Source of the DNA: Bdellovibrionales bacterium
GTDB taxonomy: Bacteria > Bdellovibrionota > Bdellovibrionia > Bdellovibrionales > JAUICD01
Length of the DNA: 64,000 nt
Assembly: GCA_965203275.1 (NCBI GenBank)
Contig: OZ241865.1
Location: 1,056,001 to 1,120,000 of the forward strand
Reading direction: 5' to 3'
The position numbers and the translations under genes are program-made. Within the stretch, counting starts at the first letter, position 1, and the number at the start of each line of letters is the position of its first letter. Below, piece after piece: positions 8,174 to 53,677 of the stretch. The notes under the pieces were generated by a model. The model had not been told where the DNA came from and ran no database searches. It worked only from the letters and a program-made list of their open reading frames with translations.

Positions 8174-9181
8174 ATGTCAAAAAGTGATTTTAGAATTCAG
8201 CATGATCAAATAGCAAGGATGGGTCTTAAACACCCTAAAAGATTTAAAGATTTTATCAAGTTCTCATTGGCTAAGGATCAGTTTAATGCTTTTGAGTTTA
8301 ATCGATTGGAATTTATTAAGACAGACTTTTTAGATCAAAAATTAGGTGGACGGATTGAGGAGTGTCGGTCTGATGTCATAGCTAAAGTAGGTGTCAAAGG
8401 TATGAAGATGCAGGGCTTAGTCGGTGTCATTATAGAGCATAAAAGCTTCAAGCAGTCTCAGAAGCAACTTTTTTTAAATGTTTTAGATTACAACGTGGCA
8501 CTTTTAAAGTCAGGTACTTACCCTGTTATGACGATTTTTTTGTTACACAATGATGCTTCGTCTCATACAGCTTCTGATTTGCAAGGGGCATTTAATTGGA
8601 CACCAGAAATGAGGAAGGTTTTTGGTGATTTGGGGTTGAATTTTGGTGTGATTGTGATAGACTTAAATAAGATATCGGAGGATGACATTTGGAATAAAGC
8701 AGGTTCAATAGCAGCTTTATGTTATGCTCTGAAGTTTGCTAAGAATATGACTAAGGATAAAATAAGGTCTATACTAAAGCTTTGTCGTCGAGATAGTGAA
8801 GATGTGATTAGTTATCGAGAGTATGCAGGTTTTTTGAGTGAGTATATGTTTCAGACCGCAGATTATCCTAAAGAGATATTATATAAGATAGAACAAGAAA
8901 TTATAACAAATAAGGAGGAAATAATTATGCCAAGTACTTATTCAAGAGCCATACAAGAAGGTATGGAAAAGGGTATGGAAAAAGGTAGAGAAGAAGGTAT
9001 GGAAAAAGGTATGGAAAGAGGTATGGAAAAAGGTATGGAAAGAGGTATGGAAAAGGGTCGACAAGAAGGGTTAAAAGAAGTTGCTTTAAATCTTCTTAAG
9101 TCGGGTCATGTAGATATTCAAGCTATTTGCAAAGCTACAGGACTTTCCAAACAAGAAGTATCAGACCTTCAAAAGGCCTAG
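8174..9181 (+). CDS. Rpn/YhgA-like PD-(D/E)XK nuclease (putative transposase family)
   Basis: N-terminal HD, RSDV...IIEHKS catalytic pattern, C-terminal EKGM repeats and TGLS tail; GGAGGA SD. Confidence 0.85.
   Translation: MSKSDFRIQHDQIARMGLKHPKRFKDFIKFSLAKDQFNAFEFNRLEFIKTDFLDQKLGGRIEECRSDVIAKVGVKGMKMQGLVGVIIEHKSFKQSQKQLFLNVLDYNVALLKSGTYPVMTIFLLHNDASSHTASDLQGAFNWTPEMRKVFGDLGLNFGVIVIDLNKISEDDIWNKAGSIAALCYALKFAKNMTKDKIRSILKLCRRDSEDVISYREYAGFLSEYMFQTADYPKEILYKIEQEIITNKEEIIMPSTYSRAIQEGMEKGMEKGREEGMEKGMERGMEKGMERGMEKGRQEGLKEVALNLLKSGHVDIQAICKATGLSKQEVSDLQKA
8927..9181 (+). CDS. Putative intragenic small Rpn product (RpnS-like), 84 aa, in frame
   Basis: TAAGGAGG at 8911-8918 precedes in-frame ATG 8927 (MPSTYSRAIQEG...). 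Confidence 0.6.
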   Translation: MPSTYSRAIQEGMEKGMEKGREEGMEKGMERGMEKGMERGMEKGRQEGLKEVALNLLKSGHVDIQAICKATGLSKQEVSDLQKA

Positions 9182-9189
9182 GATGAGTT

Positions 9190-9388
9190 GTTTCACTCAA
9201 AATGCATCATGCCTCTGGTTCACTAAAAGTAAACTAGCCTCTGGCTACTTTTGGACATTGCTCTGACAGCTTACGCTGTCCAAAAAGAGCAATGTCTCAA
9301 AAGTCCGTTTACTTTTAGTAAGGAGGATCTCTTCGTTTTTTGACACGATGTTAAGGAAAAAGTTCCTTTGGTTCACTCAAAATAAATC
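9190..9388. repeat. Structured repeat cluster 1: module A copy (9217-9366) flanked by two GTTTCACT/GGTTCACT-end fragments
   Basis: P1 ACTAAAAGTAAAC 9222-9234 pairs with 9307-9319; TAGCC-TCT-GGCTA hairpin; GACAGC-TTAC-GCTGTC hairpin; ATGTTAAGG at 9348. Confidence 0.92.
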
Positions 9389-21700: not shown

Positions 21701-22482
21701 CTGGAGGTGGCTTGTCATTTGTTGGCAAACGATTCATCAATATGCCAGCATTAACTTCAACCATTCGATATTTTCAAGCTACAGAAGTGATACCTAATTG
21801 GTTCTTTTCAGGGTTAATGGGGTTATGGGTTTCCAATATGGGCTTGGATATGTACCACCATTACTCTGAAACAAAACCTCAATCTGAATCTATGCAACAG
21901 CTTTACTTTGCCAATGTAGAACATAACATATTTGTTGATGAAGCTCTTTGGGCTATAAGTCAGGACAGGTTAGCAGAGGGAGGAACGCAAATGTGGATTA
22001 ATGTGGCTATAATGGCTAGTCTTGTTACTATACCAGGTTTAAGAAAACTTTTTGAAAGTCGGATTTCAACAAAATTTGAAAAGATAAGAGGTCATGTCAG
22101 ATACCTAGGAGAGAATCCCAACGAATTTAATTGGCGTCAATTAGATGACCTTGAAGCGTTTGTAGCAAAAAAAAATCGGACAGTTGATGATGTTAATATT
22201 ATTCAAGAACTCTCTACTTTTTACCAAAAGCATAAGGTGTATGCCGAAAGAATAATAGCAACTCGAAGATCTATGGGATTAACGCGAGGGAATCAAAATG
22301 ATCCGACTAATGCTTGGATGAAAAACATAACTGGCATGCGTAACGAGAACTCAAGTAGCAAACCACTCGAAGAGATCGCTAACCGCATGAAAACATCATT
22401 AGATCAAGAACTCCCCTATATTTTTAGAAAAAAAGATCCAGATCTTTTAGCAAAGGCCCTTTTTGAGGCATTGTATAAATAA
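18799..22482 (+). CDS. Large hypothetical secreted/membrane protein
   Basis: 1227-aa ORF with signal peptide and C-terminal hydrophobic segments; ATG 18808 is an alternative start. Confidence 0.75.
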   Translation: MYFMRLFQLKRYLIILICLSLGLTSPALSQEVSLTISEGTPNEVNEAIQPEDSLITEINTQIDELKEDVRRHAQAACCTGVPGVELDYTNLDNINLLTIRYINLKKIIQDYNYINENPDRENITKIIWVAVMLTIAFQIITAQMYLGQPLNEIDLSFSTFSLLKDGLVEVIEQYNNLPIEGRSGILFYQEDQTHLHIQIHPSGLQQIQMAIEIAQDSNKALTQLIFYPILQNYYSSILKTQTLRGIEEITYPDVRHLIEDGYFSFHLSEDVWKEIHKKNIEERFEQSPQFKAFNEKAEARVARFQTIMKDIEESFQTAILNAFQEEFYMNSMNSDEPSAKPATEIAHLNFFIKKDWLNMTLTPEHRNWILRVIPQGIQDLGGITFNSLHLEEFKSFDDNDMKAILEIGSNDHFVAICSNNINDDCRRVFASVFLSAKLFAIRQHICSAYLSVAPNFTHLSEEEKIQLGIIDHNCKDNQYHTDALDNTSENIISSHYFNRHLTSDFFSESEKESIEEVINMDETKVNCENTLSITFIINCIQEDLLQTRLENSALIDSWIEKALTAYQQRPEQSYTIEDLEAEGEQFKVQILEEYNQLLELQAPAYAAQNAHNEYMDKVIQDVIEIVNLDATIEHQPPIPVSLYGTIKLQKDFELYQESEVIMYDVLRNTQGSESYFNARAKFNAQLKNQVTSLTNVDDIYHTNDRIFIDPDKVRVALNQPLSESIALQSRWGQEAYQQTIAHQRQVLENLVNIGQDMGFFKVPSHLESLSKEHKSQYIPSVRDILSHLQPPQGFWNSIVDWWQSDWFPWYLQQYTENQKKEILNNHRILQKHYGSEEEDRLFFEVIAEECKNDFFIDQYQYQDQHCNREKVSGLIVEALATFETEITEQFHNLIDSSDPESHLEKALNFISGDNHITAVLSQEPYNASFDFHADRLRDLRTPTKKEELLLNLSIISERLSLLFLLSIAGGGLSFVGKRFINMPALTSTIRYFQATEVIPNWFFSGLMGLWVSNMGLDMYHHYSETKPQSESMQQLYFANVEHNIFVDEALWAISQDRLAEGGTQMWINVAIMASLVTIPGLRKLFESRISTKFEKIRGHVRYLGENPNEFNWRQLDDLEAFVAKKNRTVDDVNIIQELSTFYQKHKVYAERIIATRRSMGLTRGNQNDPTNAWMKNITGMRNENSSSKPLEEIANRMKTSLDQELPYIFRKKDPDLLAKALFEALYK

Positions 22483-22505
22483 ACTATGTGAAAGGAGATA
22501 TAATT

Positions 22506-23705
22506 ATGAATGTATTGAAGTTTTTTTTATGGTTATTTTTAAGTTTAACTTCTATTGATTTTGTTTTAGGGCAGGAGCAAGGTGCTTCAGATCTAAATGT
22601 GGAATCTACTCATTTAACTGTAGAGCAAGAGTTCAATGGTTTTTTAAATGACTTGCCTACTATAGTTAGAAGTCAATCATCTCAAGAAGCCTCCGAAGGT
22701 TCTGTTCCAAGAGGATCAATAGATCAATCAATAAGAAACAACATGATCAACAGCGTAGCTAATAAAGTATGGAATATTTCTGATTCACAATATAACAGAT
22801 TAGTTATAGATGCTCTCCATGCTTATATAGATCCTTCTATTTTAGATCCAGATCCTTCTGTGCATTTTCCTATTAAAAAAGTTTTAATAGATTTCTTTAT
22901 GGTATTAGGCAACAAATATGAGGAAGAAAAGCTTGCAGAAACAATGCGATGGGGTCACACATTCGCAAACAGTGCCTACCTCACATTTGCAGTACATGGT
23001 CTCGTGAAGGTCTTTTTTGCAATGCGTTTGAGAGGCGTAATAAAGCTAGGAGGAGGAAAATTTAAAAATTTTATACCTACAAGATTCCATGAATATTTAC
23101 TTCTTTTAGGAGTACCAACCGCTGTTACAGTTGGTAGAGAACTTTATCATAGTTTTATAAATGGTCCAAGGATGAATTCTCTCATATTAATGGATCATAC
23201 TTTCAGAACAGAGATGCGGTATTTATCAACAACTGCTTGTGCTTTTTTAAGTCAAGAAGTTCAAAAACATGCAAACTTTTATAGTGATCCTAATAATTCA
23301 AGGGCAATAGCAAATTTGCAAGAAAGTTATGAAAAACTCGATAACATGTATAAATTGATGAATGAAAACCTTCCTAGATTTCACACAACTCAGGAATTTA
23401 TATCAGATGCATTAAATCAAAGTATGCAGGAAGAACTAGCTCGCTTAGATCCAGATCTAGATCAGGAAGATATACAAGAGATAAAACTCCAGTTATATCT
23501 GAGTATTCAAGACCAAAAAAGTCAGATAAGAGATTTTTCAGAACAGCACCTAGGACTACAGCAGTTTCCAAACGGAGTACCTTCCATTTGTAGAAAATCC
23601 AATGGAAACATGGGAATCACAAAAGAACACTTAGATGAAATAAAAAATTATTTATCGAGCTTTCAAGGAAGTTCTATTTTACAGCAAACCTCGCCTAATC
23701 TTTAA
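22506..23705 (+). CDS. Hypothetical secreted protein (paralogue 1)
   Basis: MNVLKFFLWLFL signal, AGGAG SD; highly similar to the next gene. Confidence 0.75.
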   Translation: MNVLKFFLWLFLSLTSIDFVLGQEQGASDLNVESTHLTVEQEFNGFLNDLPTIVRSQSSQEASEGSVPRGSIDQSIRNNMINSVANKVWNISDSQYNRLVIDALHAYIDPSILDPDPSVHFPIKKVLIDFFMVLGNKYEEEKLAETMRWGHTFANSAYLTFAVHGLVKVFFAMRLRGVIKLGGGKFKNFIPTRFHEYLLLLGVPTAVTVGRELYHSFINGPRMNSLILMDHTFRTEMRYLSTTACAFLSQEVQKHANFYSDPNNSRAIANLQESYEKLDNMYKLMNENLPRFHTTQEFISDALNQSMQEELARLDPDLDQEDIQEIKLQLYLSIQDQKSQIRDFSEQHLGLQQFPNGVPSICRKSNGNMGITKEHLDEIKNYLSSFQGSSILQQTSPNL

Positions 23706-23775
23706 TATAGATAACCTTATGAAGATTGTAAAGATAAACTATGTAAAGATAAACTATGTAAAAAGAGATATAATT

Positions 23776-24930
23776 ATGAATGTATTGAAGTTTTTTTCAT
23801 GGTTATTTTTAAGTTTACTTTCTATTGATTTTGTTTTAGGTCAAGAGCAAAGTGCTTCTGGTCTAAACATGGAATCTACTCATTTAACTTTAGAGCAAGA
23901 ATTCAATGGGTTTTTAAGTGACCTACCTACTATAGCTAGAGATCAATGGCATCCTCCATCTCAAGAAACCTCTGCAAGTTCTACGACAGAAGAATCAACA
24001 GATCAATTAATAAGAAACAACATGATCAACAGCGTAGTTAATAAAATATGGAATAGTACTAGTTCTGATCTACAATACAACAGATTAATTATAGATGCCC
24101 TCAATTCTTATATATATCCTTCTACTTTAGATCCAGATCCTTCTGTGCATTTTCCTATTAAAAAAATCTTAATAGATTTTTTCATGGTTTTAGGCAACAA
24201 ATACAAGGAAGAAACCCTTCCAGAAAAAAAGCAATGGGGTTACGAACAAGTAAAGGATCACATCATATCAGCAGTAGTTTTTACTTTATTAGAGAGTGTG
24301 GCTGGACAATTAAATCCTCTCATATTAATCAATCATACTTTCATTGTAGAGATGCATAATTTAGCAACAAATGCTTGTGTTTTAAGTCAAGAAGTTCAAA
24401 ACAATAAAGTCTATCGTAATCATTCCATAAAGTATCTGCAAAAAAGTTATGAAAAACTCAGCAACATGTATGAATTGATAAATGAAAATCTTCCTAGATT
24501 TCAAGCAACTCAAGAATTTATATCAAATAGATTAATTCAAAATAGGCAAGAAAAATTAACTTACTTATATCCAAATCAAGAAGATATACAAGAGATAAAA
24601 CTCCAGTTATATCTCCATACTCAAGAAAGATTACGTAAGATAAGAGATTTTTTAGGACAATACCTAGGACTACAGCGGGTTCAAGATGAAGTACCTCATA
24701 TTTGTAGAGGAATACATAGAAACATGGAAACCACAACAAGATACTTATCAGAAATAGAAAATTATTTATTAAGCTTTCAAAAAGATTCCATTTTACAGCA
24801 ACCCTATCCTAACCCTATCCTAACCCTAACCCTTAATAAAAACCATCTTAGTCGTTCAAGAAATATTTTGCTTGAACTGGCTGATATGCAAAAGTTCTTC
24901 ATAGATGCACTGCCATTTTATTTCTTGTAG
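23776..24930 (+). CDS. Hypothetical secreted protein (paralogue 2)
   Basis: Shares LDPDPSVHFPIKK, NENLPRF and QEDIQEIKLQLYL with paralogue 1; 3' end overlaps mfd. Confidence 0.72.
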   Translation: MNVLKFFSWLFLSLLSIDFVLGQEQSASGLNMESTHLTLEQEFNGFLSDLPTIARDQWHPPSQETSASSTTEESTDQLIRNNMINSVVNKIWNSTSSDLQYNRLIIDALNSYIYPSTLDPDPSVHFPIKKILIDFFMVLGNKYKEETLPEKKQWGYEQVKDHIISAVVFTLLESVAGQLNPLILINHTFIVEMHNLATNACVLSQEVQNNKVYRNHSIKYLQKSYEKLSNMYELINENLPRFQATQEFISNRLIQNRQEKLTYLYPNQEDIQEIKLQLYLHTQERLRKIRDFLGQYLGLQRVQDEVPHICRGIHRNMETTTRYLSEIENYLLSFQKDSILQQPYPNPILTLTLNKNHLSRSRNILLELADMQKFFIDALPFYFL

Positions 24931-38148: not shown

Positions 38149-38454
38149 ATGACGATGAAAAAATTCAAAACTTACCAATTAGCTACTCAATTTTATCGTA
38201 ATTCTAAAAAATTACATCTGAAAGAGCCTCATAGAAGTCAGTTTCGAAGGGCTGTCTCAAGTATTGTACTTAACTTAGCTGAAGGATCTGCTAAACCTAC
38301 AGCAAAAGATCGTAGGAAGTTTTATTATATTAGTCTTGGTTCTTTAAGAGAGGTTCAAGCGATATTGGATCTAGAGTTTATTGGCTGTATGGAATTAGCA
38401 AAACAAGCTGATAAATTAGGAGCTTATTTATACAAACTGTGTAAAAATACTTAA
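38149..38454 (+). CDS. Four-helix-bundle protein (23S rRNA IVP / Avd-like family)
   Basis: QFRRAVSSIVLNLAEGS...RKFYYISLGSLREVQ family pattern; GGAGG SD. Confidence 0.9.
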   Translation: MTMKKFKTYQLATQFYRNSKKLHLKEPHRSQFRRAVSSIVLNLAEGSAKPTAKDRRKFYYISLGSLREVQAILDLEFIGCMELAKQADKLGAYLYKLCKNT

Positions 38455-38464
38455 ATTCAATTTT

Positions 38465-38728
38465 GATCTTTTCCGGGATCTGGGATCCGGGATCTGGCAG
38501 TCAGGCAGAGATGAAGCGAATAGCTTGTTTCCTTAACATCGTGTTAAAAAACGAAGGTTTCCTTCCTACTCAAAATAAATGAATTTTCTAAGCAGTTAGC
38601 CTTTGTCGACGACGAAAGTCGTCGGGCTAACTGCCAGAAAACATGCCAGAGGCATGATGCATTTTGAGTGAACCAAACGGCTAGACCACTTTTAGTGAAC
38701 CAGAGGTGTGGCTCATTTTGAGTGAAAC
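38465..38728. repeat. Structured repeat cluster 5: heptamers, module A copy, two end fragments
   Basis: CCGGGAT/CTGGGAT tract, TTTCCTTAACAT site, copy ~38521-38674 with GAAA loop. Confidence 0.9.
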
Positions 38729-43812: not shown

Positions 43813-44755
43813 GTTGTTTCAGTTGTTTCACTCAAAGTGAACTGACCTCTGGTCACTTTCTGGCGATGACCACGATGGCTTTCGCCATCGATAAAATGGT
43901 CATCGCCTAGAAAGCCTGTTCACTTTGAGTAGGGAGGATATCCTCGTTTTTTTACTACATGTTAAGGGTTTGTTTCACTAAAAGTAAACCAACCTCTGGT
44001 TGCTTTTGGACATTGCTCTGACAGCTATCGCTGTCCAAAAAGAGCAATGTCGTTGGTTCACTAAAAGTGGTCTAGCCTCTGGCTACTTTCTGGCAATGAC
44101 CGCAATGGCTTTCGCCATTGGCAAAATGGTCATTGCCTAGAAAGCTTGACCACTTTTAGTAGGGAGGATCCCTTCGTCCCTTAACTTCATATTAAGGAAA
44201 AAGTCCTTTCTTACACCTTTTGACCACGATGGCTTTCGCCATCGATAAAATGGTCATCGCCTAGAAAGCCTGTTCACTTTGAGTAGGGAGGATATCCTCG
44301 TTTTTTTACTACATGTTAAGGGTTTGTTTCACTAAAAGTAAACCAACCTCTGGTTGCTTTTGGACATTGCTCTGACAGCTATCGCTGTCCAAAAAGAGCA
44401 ATGTCGTTGGTTCACTAAAAGTGGTCTAGCCTCTGGCTACTTTCTGGCAATGACCGCAATGGCTTTCGCCATTGGCAAAATGGTCATTGCCTAGAAAGCT
44501 TGACCACTTTTAGTAGGGAGGATCCCTTCGTCCCTTAACTTCATATTAAGGAAAAAGTCCTTTCTTACACCTTTTGACCACGATGGCTTTCGCCATCGGT
44601 AAAATGGTCATCGCCTAGAAAGCCTGTTCACTTTGAGTAGGAAGGATATCCTCGTTTTTTTACTACATGCTAAGGAAAAAGTTCCTTCTGTTGCCGGTTT
44701 GCCGGATGCCGGAAAAAAGACCTTTTTATTTCTTTATACCATGTTAATGAAAGTT
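43813..44755. repeat. Structured repeat cluster 7: module A array with 354-bp higher-order tandem repeat
   Basis: TGACCACGATGGC at 43867, 44221 and 44575. Confidence 0.93.
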
Positions 44756-46369: not shown

Positions 46370-47780
46370 ATTCACTAAAAGTAAACTAGCCTCTGGCTAC
46401 TTTTGGGTTGCCAGCCCGACGGCTCTCGCCGTCGATCAAAGGCTGATTGCCTCAAAAATCCGTTTATTTTTAGTAGGAAGAATCCTCTTGTCTCTTTACA
46501 CGATGTTAAGGAAACAAGATATCCACTCCCGGGATCAGGCAATCAGGCATCCCGGGATCTGATGCCGGGTTGCCGGATCCCGGATCCCGGATAAATATCA
46601 TGTTAAGGAAAAAGTTCCTTCTGTTTCACTGTTTCACTAAAAGTAAACTAGCCTCTGTTTCACTCAAAGTGAACTGGCCTCTGGCCACTTTCTGGCGATG
46701 ACCACGATGGCTTACGCCGTTGACAAAATGGTCATCGCCTAGAAAGCCTGTTCACTTTGAGTAGGGAGGATCTCCTCGTTTTTTTACTACATGTTAAGGA
46801 AACAAGCTATTTGTTTCACTCAAAATAAATCATGCCTCTGGCATGTTTTCTGGCAGTTAGCCCGACGGCTCACGCCGTCGATCAAAGGCTAACTGCCTAG
46901 AAAATCCATTTATTTTTAGTAGGAAGAATCCTCTTGTCTCTTTACACGATGTTAAGGAAACAAGATATCCACTCCCGGGATCAGGCAATCAGGCATCCCG
47001 GGATCTGATGCCGGGTTGCCGGATCCCTGATCCCGGATCCCGGATAAATATCATGTTAAGGAAAAAGTTCCTTCTGTTTTACTGGTTCACTAAAAGTAAA
47101 CTAGCCTCTGGCTACTTTCTGGCAATGACCGCAATGGCTTTCGCCATTGGCAAAATGGTCATTGCCTAGAAAGCTTGACCACTTTTAGTAGGGAGGATCC
47201 CTTCGTCCCTTAACTTCATGTTAAGGAAAAAGTCCTTTCTTACACCTTTTGACCACGATGGCTTTCGCCATTGGCAAAATGGTCATCGCCTAGAAAGCCT
47301 GACCACTTTTAGTAGGGAGGACCTCCTCATCTCTTTACACGATGTTAAGGAAACAAGACATTCACTCCCGGTATCTTGGATCTGGCACTGGCATCCCGGG
47401 TTCCGGGACTTGATGCCGGTTTGCCGGATACCAGATCCCAGAAAAAGGATCCCTTTATGTCTTTATACCATGTTAAGGAAATAAACTATTTGTTTTTTTG
47501 TTTTTTTATTTTCTTTTAGATTCTGCGTAATTTTCAAAAAAGCATGAGTATTATGAGTGGGAGGCGGGGGCAGGCTGAAGATCTTCCGCAGACCCGCTTG
47601 CTCCCTAAAAACATTTTAGAAGCATATCTTGTTTCCCTAACATGGTGTAAGAAGCAAGGAGATCCTCCTCTACTCAAAATGAGCGGATTTTTTAGGTGTT
47701 GCCTATTTTGTCAAAGGCGTAAGCCTTTGCAGGCAACACCAAAAAACACACCAGAGGTGTGGCTCATTTTGAGTGAAAAA
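46370..47780. repeat. Structured repeat cluster 8: 1.4-kb array of modules A, C and partial B
   Basis: ATGTTAAGGAAA at about 46503, 46600, 46791, 46949, 47053, 47218, 47342, 47470; inverted A copy ~47625-47780. Confidence 0.93.
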
Positions 47781-52642: not shown

Positions 52643-53677
52643 TTTCACTAAAAGTAAACTGACCTCTGGTCACTTTTGGGCATTGGCTCACTAAAAGTGG
52701 TCTAGCCTCTGTTTCACTCAAAATGAGCCACATCTCTGGTGTGTTTTTGGGCATTGCTCTGACAGCTTACGCTGTCTAAAAAGAGCAATGTCTCAAAAGT
52801 CCGTTTACTTTTAGTAGGAAGGATCTCATCGTCTCTTAACCACATGTTAAGGGTTTGTTTCACTCAAAATGCATCATGCCTCTGTTTCCCTAAAATTGAA
52901 CTAGCCTCTGGCTACTTTTGGGCAGTTAGCCCGACGACTGTCGTCGTCGATCAAAGGCTAACTCCCTCAAAAGCTTGTTCAATTTTAGGAAGAAGGATCT
53001 CCTCGTCTCTTGACCACATGTTAAGGAAAATATCCTTTTAATACCAGTTAGCCCAACGGCTTATCGCCGTTGATCAAAGGCTAACTGCCTAGAAAATCCA
53101 TTTATTTTGAGTAGGGAAGGATCTTCTCGTCTCTTAACCACATGTTAAGGAAAAAGTTCTTTTTTTTTGTTTTTTTATTTTTTTAGATTCTGCGTAAAAC
53201 CTCAAACAAAAAGTAATTAGGTGGAGGATGGGGCAGTGGGAGACTGAAGATCTTCCGCAAATTGAGCTTGCTCTTTAAAAGCAAGCTCAATTGAGGACTT
53301 CGGAAGGCTCTCACTGCCCTATCCTCAAATAAAAATAAAATGGAAAAGCAGAATCGAAGGGCGGTGGGTGGGGTTAGGGATAATCCTTTTGTTGCCGGGG
53401 TCCCGGAGGGAGAATATCCGTATTTCACTATCAATGTGTATTATATTGATACAGAATCTTAGAAAAATTATATATTTTTTACTTTTTTCATTAAATTGTC
53501 GATAAGTCGTTTATAATGACTTTAAGGAGTTGGTTCACTAAAAGTAAACTAGCCTCTGGCTACTTTTGGACATTGCTCTGACAGCTATCGCTGTCCAAAA
53601 AGAGCAATGTCTCAAAAGTCCGTTTACTTTTAGTAGAAAGGATATCCTCATTTTTTAACACGATGTTAAGGAAAAAA
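52643..53677. repeat. Structured repeat cluster 9: module A copies and fragments plus module B
   Basis: A copies at ~52711, 52884, 53532; partial ~53045; module B ~53161-53400, inverted relative to the 37.6-kb copy. Confidence 0.92.

What the first reader, a model, noticed from the sequence alone, without database searches (positions are those of the whole stretch)
52643..52900. Polar truncation: fragments keep the GTTTCACT end and repeatedly break at the same CCTCT loop
Seen: five fragments run from G(T/G)(T/C)TCACT to exactly ...CCTCT and are fused directly to the start of another copy: 9190-9216, 46631-46656, 52685-52710, 52857-52883 and inverted 38702-38728. Other fusions occur after TAGCC (38679, 40049), GGGCATT/GGGCAAT (52684, 31933), CAATGTC (44051) and ATGTTAAGG (43967, 44321, 52852), often with GTT/GTTT stutters. 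Junctions have 1-2 nt of G microhomology at most. Inference: synthesis or strand transfer starts at one fixed end and restarts on a new template, as in RT template jumping or one-ended rolling-circle (HUH) transfer. The conserved loop may be a cleavage or stall site.
Basis: partly seen in the sequence, partly recalled or inferred. Interest (0 to 1): 0.75.

Follow-up and report, generated by a model that had tools for sequence, protein, structure and literature searches.

The report
Hairpin repeats nesting inside older copies
The short fragments are mostly the left halves of older copies of an abundant hairpin-shaped DNA repeat, split when a new copy landed in one small loop; this self-targeting habit is unusual and the enzyme behind it is unknown.

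Summary
All listed junctions exist. Genome-wide, 268 of 436 fused fragments end at the CCTCT loop (24 expected). Strict polarity fails: 397 fragments keep the opposite TTAAGG end versus 594 keeping GTTTCACT. The two classes are halves of one event. In 77 distinct head+full+remainder triads, the head's stem arm exactly complements the remainder's in 27 (shuffled mean 10.2, maximum 24 in 20,000); the intervening copy does so in 9. So new copies insert into older ones in the same orientation (475 versus 3, plus 94 of one inverted junction word). The left joint is sharp and the right joint usually loses 5-19 target bases. Junction words travel with the incoming allele, so counts overstate independent events, but 17 of 58 junction types still lie in the loop. 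Most likely mechanism (0.4): a plus-strand 3' end in the loop primes copying of another element, then switches back by microhomology. No RT, Y1/RAYT, Rep, primase-polymerase or Ku was found in this genome. It works like REPIN/BIME elements but fails membership. This scan noted the same nesting on other windows of this genome.

The parts
52643..52684 (+). Left piece (columns 2-43) of a resident element; its P1 left arm is complementary to the P1 right arm inside 52711-52852
52685..52710 (+). Head, columns 1-26, ending in the P2 loop CCTCT
52711..52852 (+). Full-length but chimeric copy: its P1 arms disagree, and the right arm matches the 52643 piece
   Evidence: (row C1:1108711)
52853..52856 (+). 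GTTT leader between an end and the next start
52857..52883 (+). Head, columns 1-26, ending in CCTCT
52884..53026 (+). Intact 143-nt incoming copy (allele GTTTCCCT) folding into a three-way junction, DNA fold z = -8.5
   Evidence: 52860-53045 recurs 100% identical at C1:997608
53027..53044 (+). Donor tail forming the right junction
53045..53150 (+). Remainder, columns 40-143. It differs from the 52857 head allele at 2 positions here; at C1:754943 the same unit has an exactly matching head
53151..53381 (+). Tail and a second hairpin repeat family (C) downstream
9190..9356 (+). Head (9190-9216) plus full copy, just after the stop codon of an Rpn/YhgA gene
46631..46799 (+). Head (46631-46656) plus full copy, preceded by an 8-nt head
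38531..38728 (-). Stack: head 1-26/28 (38702-38728), head 1-23 (38679-38699), GTTT leader, full copy
43972..44321 (+). Piece 1-83, full copy, tail and remainder 43-143; repeated in tandem at 44326-44675
47084..47350 (+). Full copy, tail and TTAAGG-keeping remainder (columns 43-143)
38149..38454 (+). Four-helix-bundle (PF05635/TIGR02436) gene between heptamer repeats, with antisense hairpin elements nearby; candidate accessory, not shown to act

Best explanation
The repeat is a non-autonomous 143-nt element (plus a short leader and an 8-25 nt tail) that folds as single-stranded DNA and is copied into new sites, very often into older copies of itself. SHOWN (about 0.9): heads and remainders are halves of split resident copies; insertion is in the same orientation; the left joint is sharp and concentrated in the P2 loop; the right joint removes a few target bases and carries donor tail; no fixed target duplication; composite units are spread between loci by recombination. 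INFERRED (about 0.45 of that): a free 3' end on the resident's plus strand at or just past CCTCT, made by a structure-specific nick or a polymerase stall, anneals through 1-3 nt to the end of another copy's minus strand. A DNA polymerase copies that element and its tail, then switches back to the resident strand at a microhomology or at a downstream homologous copy. Donors keep the few flank bases of their last landing, so CT-leader alleles return to CCTCT and the hotspot reinforces itself.
For: Head-remainder arm match 36 of 91 versus 11.8 expected and 27 of 77 after removing duplicates. Target loss lies between -6 and +20 nt in 85 of 130 triads versus 60.7 shuffled, maximum 77. Same-strand versus opposite-strand internal targets 475 versus 3. 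Filled versus empty paralogous sites show mostly 0-30 nt target loss, sometimes short overlaps, extra bases and ragged starts (53 loci, part of the output cut). Fold-back synthesis products exist: 32 copies whose right arm runs on into the complement of their own start versus 689 normal, and 12 fold-backs after P2. In the same-genus genome a fold-back insert begins exactly after CCTCT (L032, L043, L046, L047). Core helices are almost all Watson-Crick, with no general G-T excess over A-C (P1 29 versus 49, P2 10 versus 10, P3c 5 versus 5), as expected for DNA-level copying. Leader class depends on allele (chi-square 609, 112 df): 38 of 67 CCTAAAATTGAAC starts follow CT, versus 0 of 93 ACTCAAAATGCAT starts.
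Against: No nicking enzyme or dedicated polymerase was identified; primase-polymerase and Ku searches were empty. 50 of 77 triads do not match, so later shuffling must be invoked. My direct test of resolution by homology inside the copy failed: full copies after heads have discordant arms no more often (28 of 246) than others (51 of 444), and 7 of 28 match an upstream head versus 5.8 expected. The rank correlation of left and right breakpoints over 66 distinct pairs is nil (rho 0.06). 94 starts join the opposite strand at one word. One P3b pair and the weak 3' hairpin do favour plus-strand G-T. The larger P3 apical loop is hardly hit, so being single-stranded is not enough.
Confidence: 0.4

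Rival explanations
1. A HUH (TnpA-REP-like) nuclease, now lost or supplied in trans, cuts the folded plus strand at C|T both before the start and in the loop and joins the tyrosine-linked start to the target 3' end. Host replication resolves the other side.
For: TnpA-REP cleaves at C|T on either side of a REP and performs strand transfer (PMC8266576, passages). 45 of 71 starts in sampled G001 regions and 259 of 781 in G000 follow CT. Insertion is strand-specific. A GTAG-like word precedes a weak hairpin at columns 105-121.
Against: No Y1_Tnp, RAYT or Rep_trans in G000. The G001 Y1 gene has no repeat beside it. 269 of 445 left joints carry extra bases. In L039 the GCT leader is not from the duplicated target. 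Zero-leader joints use only columns 19 and 26, none of the other frequent CTG sites. No replichore bias, 167 versus 195, p = 0.16, though the GC skew is weak.
Confidence: 0.25
2. Target-primed reverse transcription: a minus-strand RNA ending at the element's start is copied from the nick by a borrowed group II intron-type RT, perhaps with the Avd-like four-helix-bundle protein as accessory.
For: Such RTs perform terminal transfer, snap-back synthesis and microhomology joining (10.1101/2022.03.14.484287, abstract and section headings), which fits the junctions. G001 encodes a group II intron-type RT and a retron-type RT (types judged by eye from recalled motifs). Leaders are T-rich, as A-rich RNA tails would give. 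4 of 36 tRNA/tmRNA genes have a start within 12 nt after CCA, about 0.15 expected.
Against: No RT in G000 or G004. No general G-U signature. Starts also pile up after stop codons (32 of 115 within 10 nt), which are not RNA ends. Four-helix-bundle genes occur without this repeat (13 G004 regions; other order members), and its orientation to the gene differs in G001 (L025).
Confidence: 0.2
3. A handful of accidental founder junctions were multiplied by gene conversion among about 1,850 segments, so the loop is not an active site today.
For: Identical junction words recur dozens of times (61, 57 and 17). Composite units are up to 100% identical at distant loci. Leader and allele are tightly linked.
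Against: 17 of 58 distinct junction types are in the loop (rough clustering). 157 direct fusions span 74 head-by-incomer allele pairs. The same left joint pairs with at least 12 different right breakpoints. The site is also used in G001.
Confidence: 0.1
4. One reading: synthesis aborts at the loop and jumps to a fresh template, so concatemers form before integration.
For: Many stacks (HF 60, HH 34, HHF 13) have no visible remainder, and 436 of 615 heads are fused to a start.
Against: Heads match distal remainders across the inserted copy. 233 of 373 remainders follow another copy's tail. Only 10 of 157 heads share the allele of the next copy.
Confidence: 0.05

Closest known systems
REP / BIME / REPIN elements with RAYT (TnpA-REP); PMC8266576, PMC3333891, PMC3116915 (passages seen)
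   Same: Hundreds of extragenic hairpin copies, compensatory stem changes, mosaic clusters, insertion into or next to existing copies, capture of flanking DNA, CT at many joints.
   Different: A 143-nt asymmetric three-way junction rather than 20-60 nt palindromes or an inverted doublet; no RAYT found; one dominant internal landing site; target loss and inherited leaders.
IS200/IS605 single-strand transposons (PMC3333891 passages; non-autonomous derivatives recalled)
   Same: No terminal inverted repeats, no fixed target duplication, strand-specific.
   Different: Joints here are imprecise, no lagging-strand bias was detected, and no TnpA is in the genome.
IS91/ISCR one-ended rolling-circle transposition (recalled; one sentence seen in PMC3333891)
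   Same: One sharper end, one variable end, read-through into donor flank.
   Different: No Y2 transposase found (control silent); no fixed tetranucleotide target; target deletions.
Group II intron-like RT microhomology end joining (10.1101/2022.03.14.484287, abstract and headings)
   Same: Snap-back products, microhomology, extra bases.
   Different: No RT in this genome; the repeat is not an intron remnant by Rfam.

Membership tests
REP/BIME/REPIN-RAYT | High-copy extragenic hairpin repeats in mosaic clusters | tested here: met
   1,854 segments in 546 loci; fold z from -7 to -11.6
REP/BIME/REPIN-RAYT | Cognate RAYT gene flanked by the repeats | tested here: not met
   NF047646 and PF01797 give 0 matches in G000 with ringing controls; genome 90% complete by markers, one contig
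REP/BIME/REPIN-RAYT | GTAG tetranucleotide at the foot of a conserved palindrome | tested here: inconclusive
   G-T-A-(G/A) at columns 105-108, but the following hairpin pairs poorly and shows little covariation
REP/BIME/REPIN-RAYT | Joints at a C|T cleavage dinucleotide | tested here: inconclusive
   CT before 259 of 781 starts in G000 and 45 of 71 in G001; most joints carry other leaders
REPIN | Unit is an inverted doublet of one REP | tested here: not met
   Asymmetric three-way junction with unlike ends
IS200/IS605 derivative | Precise insertion without loss or gain of bases | tested here: not met
   Filled versus empty sites and nested joints
IS200/IS605 derivative | Lagging-strand preference | tested here: inconclusive
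   281 versus 265 loci, p = 0.52; origin and terminus uncertain
IS91/ISCR | Y2 transposase | tested here: inconclusive
   0 of 5 genomes, control silent
MITE | Terminal inverted repeats and fixed target-site duplication | tested here: not met
Retroelement (group II intron, retron, SINE-like) | Reverse transcriptase in the host | tested here: not met
   0 in G000 and G004, 3 matches in G001
Retroelement (group II intron, retron, SINE-like) | RNA intermediate | not testable with these tools
   no RNA holder listed
Self-cleaving ribozyme | Match to a known family | tested here: not met
   Rfam gathering thresholds, 0 matches in the window
Self-cleaving ribozyme | In vitro self-cleavage at the loop | not testable with these tools
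   needs bench work

The most novel reading that the evidence does not exclude
A self-targeting 'homing' hairpin DNA that needs no transposase of its own: its fold creates a priming end in its own loop, each donor carries a few bases of its last landing site as a guide, and the widespread enzyme-less four-helix-bundle/heptamer cassettes move by the same undescribed pathway and supply the accessory protein.
Probability: 0.12. Interest if true: 0.85.

Novelty: new variant of a known kind. Interest (0 to 1): 0.5.

Why it matters
How REP/REPIN-type repeats spread in vivo is unresolved; PMC3333891 states that the exact mechanism is unknown. This genome holds hundreds of nested insertions whose target sequence is known, so both joints of each event can be read. 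It gives a defined substrate (the loop, the leader, the tail) for finding an unknown mobilising activity in a genome where about 7% of the DNA is this repeat and no standard enzyme was found.

Tried and rejected
Assembly artefact: rejected, because the junction types occur in unitigs of three runs and in relatives. A strict T|G target rule: 818 of 851 motif-defined starts follow T, but paralogous empty sites show that T can come with the element, and col 1 is G in only 45% of 349 unique-flank starts. Resolution by homology within the inserted copy as a general rule: not supported. Rpn/YhgA as mobiliser: 16 copies in G003, which lacks the repeat, and 1 in G004. G001 Y1 transposase: a lone gene with no repeat in its 3.4 kb locus. 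Loose HUH and RT motif scans of predicted proteins gave no convincing candidate by eye. An Xer/dif or integron link (motifs recalled): only two tyrosine recombinases, and the three dif-like hits are one identical repeated word. No RNA holder listed. Literature searches that found no description; subscription papers and bioRxiv supplements are not covered. The proteome was not scanned whole against Pfam (45 window proteins plus 11 targeted families), so a remote enzyme family could be missed.

Full report
Setting. The window is C1:1056001-1120000 of a single-contig 2.57 Mb genome with 35% G+C, 90% complete by markers. Earlier scan notes call it Bdellovibrio-like; I did not classify it myself. 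A 143-nt non-coding repeat covers about 179 kb by BLAST. It folds on either strand into a three-way junction: an outer stem P1 (columns 6-18 with 94-106), a small hairpin P2 with loop TCT (19-31) and a long arm P3. The alignment of 336 distinct full copies shows many alleles with complementary arms. Rfam has no match in the window. The repeat is also abundant in same-genus G001 and present in 6 end-motif copies on three small contigs of G004. It was not found in the other 38 of 40 relatives searched. The G004 copies may be misbinned, because none lay in the 13 regions I read from its large contigs.

Checking the observation. I parsed all 547 repeat regions with a profile that allows jumps and kept 1,854 segments scoring at least 24 bits in 546 loci: 679 full, 594 keeping the GTTTCACT end, 397 keeping the TTAAGG end and 184 internal. 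With a start tolerance of 5 columns there are 615 heads, of which 436 are fused to a same-strand start. 268 of those end in columns 23-29, against 24.4 expected. The hotspot is therefore real. Polarity is not one-sided: of 373 remainders, 233 directly follow the tail of another copy, and several lie in this window.

What the fragments are. If a new copy inserts into a resident, the left piece and the piece beyond the insert should carry complementary P1 arms. In 91 head+full+remainder chains the innermost head matches the remainder exactly in 36 (11.8 expected), while the intervening full copy matches in 10. After collapsing identical cases this is 27 of 77, with a permutation mean of 10.2 and a maximum of 24 in 20,000; the full copy matches in 9. 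Both loop heads (15 of 41) and other heads (12 of 36) show it. The 50 non-matching cases need later shuffling. That is plausible, since 79 of 690 full copies have discordant arms and composite units recur near-identically at distant loci. At the finding itself, the 52857 head differs by 2 nt from the 53045 remainder, whereas the same unit at C1:754943 matches exactly. The copy at 52711 carries the right arm of the piece at 52643. A matching triad also occurs in L070, a locus from the MAG record.

The two joints. Left joint: among 445 element-into-element joints, 166 overlap by 1-3 nt, 10 are flush and 269 have 1-12 extra bases. Zero-leader CT|G joints occur only at column 26 (162, counting the G/GG-shifted calls) and column 19 (16), and not at other common CTG sites. 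The leader class is tied to the incoming allele, and in L039 a GCT leader is not part of the duplicated target. Leaders are thus largely inherited, and raw counts overstate independent events. Even so, 17 of 58 roughly clustered junction types are in the loop, the direct CCTCT joint pairs with at least 12 right breakpoints, and it spans 74 allele pairs. G001 uses the same site (6 of 71 sampled starts by motif, one of them doubtful) and also carries a fold-back insert beginning exactly after CCTCT. Right joint: 8-25 nt of donor tail, then resumption in the target. Most matched cases lose 5-19 nt, with a range from -5 to 40. Paralogous filled and empty sites show the same: no fixed duplication, mostly 0-30 nt loss (53 loci, many within other repeats, part of the output cut). 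Orientation: 475 starts lie in same-strand copies and 3 in opposite-strand interiors, plus 94 at one inverted word.

Mechanism. Imprecise joints, microhomology, fold-back products (32 versus 689 normal, plus 12) and near-perfect Watson-Crick stems without a general G-T bias point to a polymerase extending a free 3' end across folded single strands. I therefore favour loop-primed copy-in with template switching (0.4), followed by conversion among copies. One prediction of it failed: copies behind heads are not more often chimeric (28 of 246 versus 51 of 444). Left and right breakpoints are closer than chance (85 of 130 versus 60.7) but not rank-correlated. A TnpA-REP-like HUH enzyme (0.25) fits the CT and the strand specificity (PMC8266576 passages; PMC3333891 passages) but not the ragged joints. 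An RT route (0.2) fits the joint chemistry (bioRxiv 2022.03.14.484287, abstract and headings) and the 4 of 36 tRNA/tmRNA genes with a start just after CCA. However, only G001 has RTs, and starts also crowd behind stop codons, which suggests erosion of flanks up to essential sequence (inference).

Enzyme search. G000 gave no match for RVT_1, Y1_Tnp, RAYT, Rep_trans, primase-polymerase or Ku with ringing controls, and none for Y2_Tnp or Rep_1 with silent controls. Rpn/YhgA does not track the repeat. Four-helix-bundle genes number 14, 19 and 19 in G000, G001 and G004 and 0 in G002 and G003. All 14 in G000 have the repeat within 700 nt, mostly antisense. But they also occur in many copies in order members lacking the repeat, so they are at most an accessory or a favoured target. 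Their likeness to Avd is recalled and echoed in earlier scan notes; I did not test it.

Comparison and verdict. The element works like REPIN/BIME repeats, where insertion into or next to existing copies is described (PMC3116915 passages). It fails membership on the cognate RAYT and the doublet structure, and fails IS200/IS605 and MITE tests on joint precision and ends. Six literature searches found no description. Earlier notes of this scan report the same nesting on other windows of this genome; they are unchecked AI notes and not independent support. Verdict: real feature, first interpretation half right, new variant of a known kind, interest 0.5.

Noticed in passing
window 38149-38454; 14 copies in G000: Four-helix-bundle gene between GATCCCG-type heptamer arrays, with its ribosome-binding site inside a conserved hairpin; in L021 and L024 two such genes diverge from one palindrome.
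   Followed up: partly
G000:C1:216535, 653183, 1867563, 2009843; L037:836: Repeat starts lie 0-9 nt after the CCA end of tRNA genes, on the same strand (4 of 36 genes in G000, about 0.15 expected; one flush joint in G001).
   Followed up: partly
window 53151-53381, about 55 loci: A second structured repeat family (C) with a long hairpin; also a target of the main repeat and present in G001 and G004.
   Followed up: partly
window 46540-46610, 46980-47060: Heptamer family B copies end in the same ATGTTAAGG word as the main repeat (99 of 1,224 end motifs).
   Followed up: partly
G000:C1:893180, 908254, 1707820, 2025618: One repeat insertion inside or between Rpn-like coding sequence, just before a ribosome-binding site, was later duplicated with the gene; an empty paralogue is at C1:2096830.
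   Followed up: partly
window 8174-9181: Rpn/YhgA-like gene, one of 16 in the genome; the family was found only in 4 of 41 genomes searched, all in this family.
   Followed up: yes
G004 contigs C1, C4, C11: All six end-motif copies and the only Rpn gene of G004 lie on small contigs; possible misbinning.
   Followed up: partly
G000:C1:467235-467388, 2552135-2552922: A recurrent ~150-nt foreign segment sits between a head (column ~37-42) and a remainder (column 36) in about 15 loci, sometimes in tandem; possibly another element nested in this one.
   Followed up: no
G000:C1:78855-78943 and about 12 other loci: A palindromic ~35-nt insert between columns 86 and 90 defines a long allele of the repeat.
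   Followed up: no
G000:C1:1884929 and two other places: Three 105-aa copies of a small HNH-like protein (motif judged by eye).
   Followed up: no
window 22472-24812: Two adjacent ~400-aa genes without curated Pfam match share about 500-nt duplicated blocks.
   Followed up: no
L026, L029, L030 (G001): A group II intron-type RT, an internally deleted copy of it and a 603-aa retron-like RT; one repeat copy lies in L029.
   Followed up: partly
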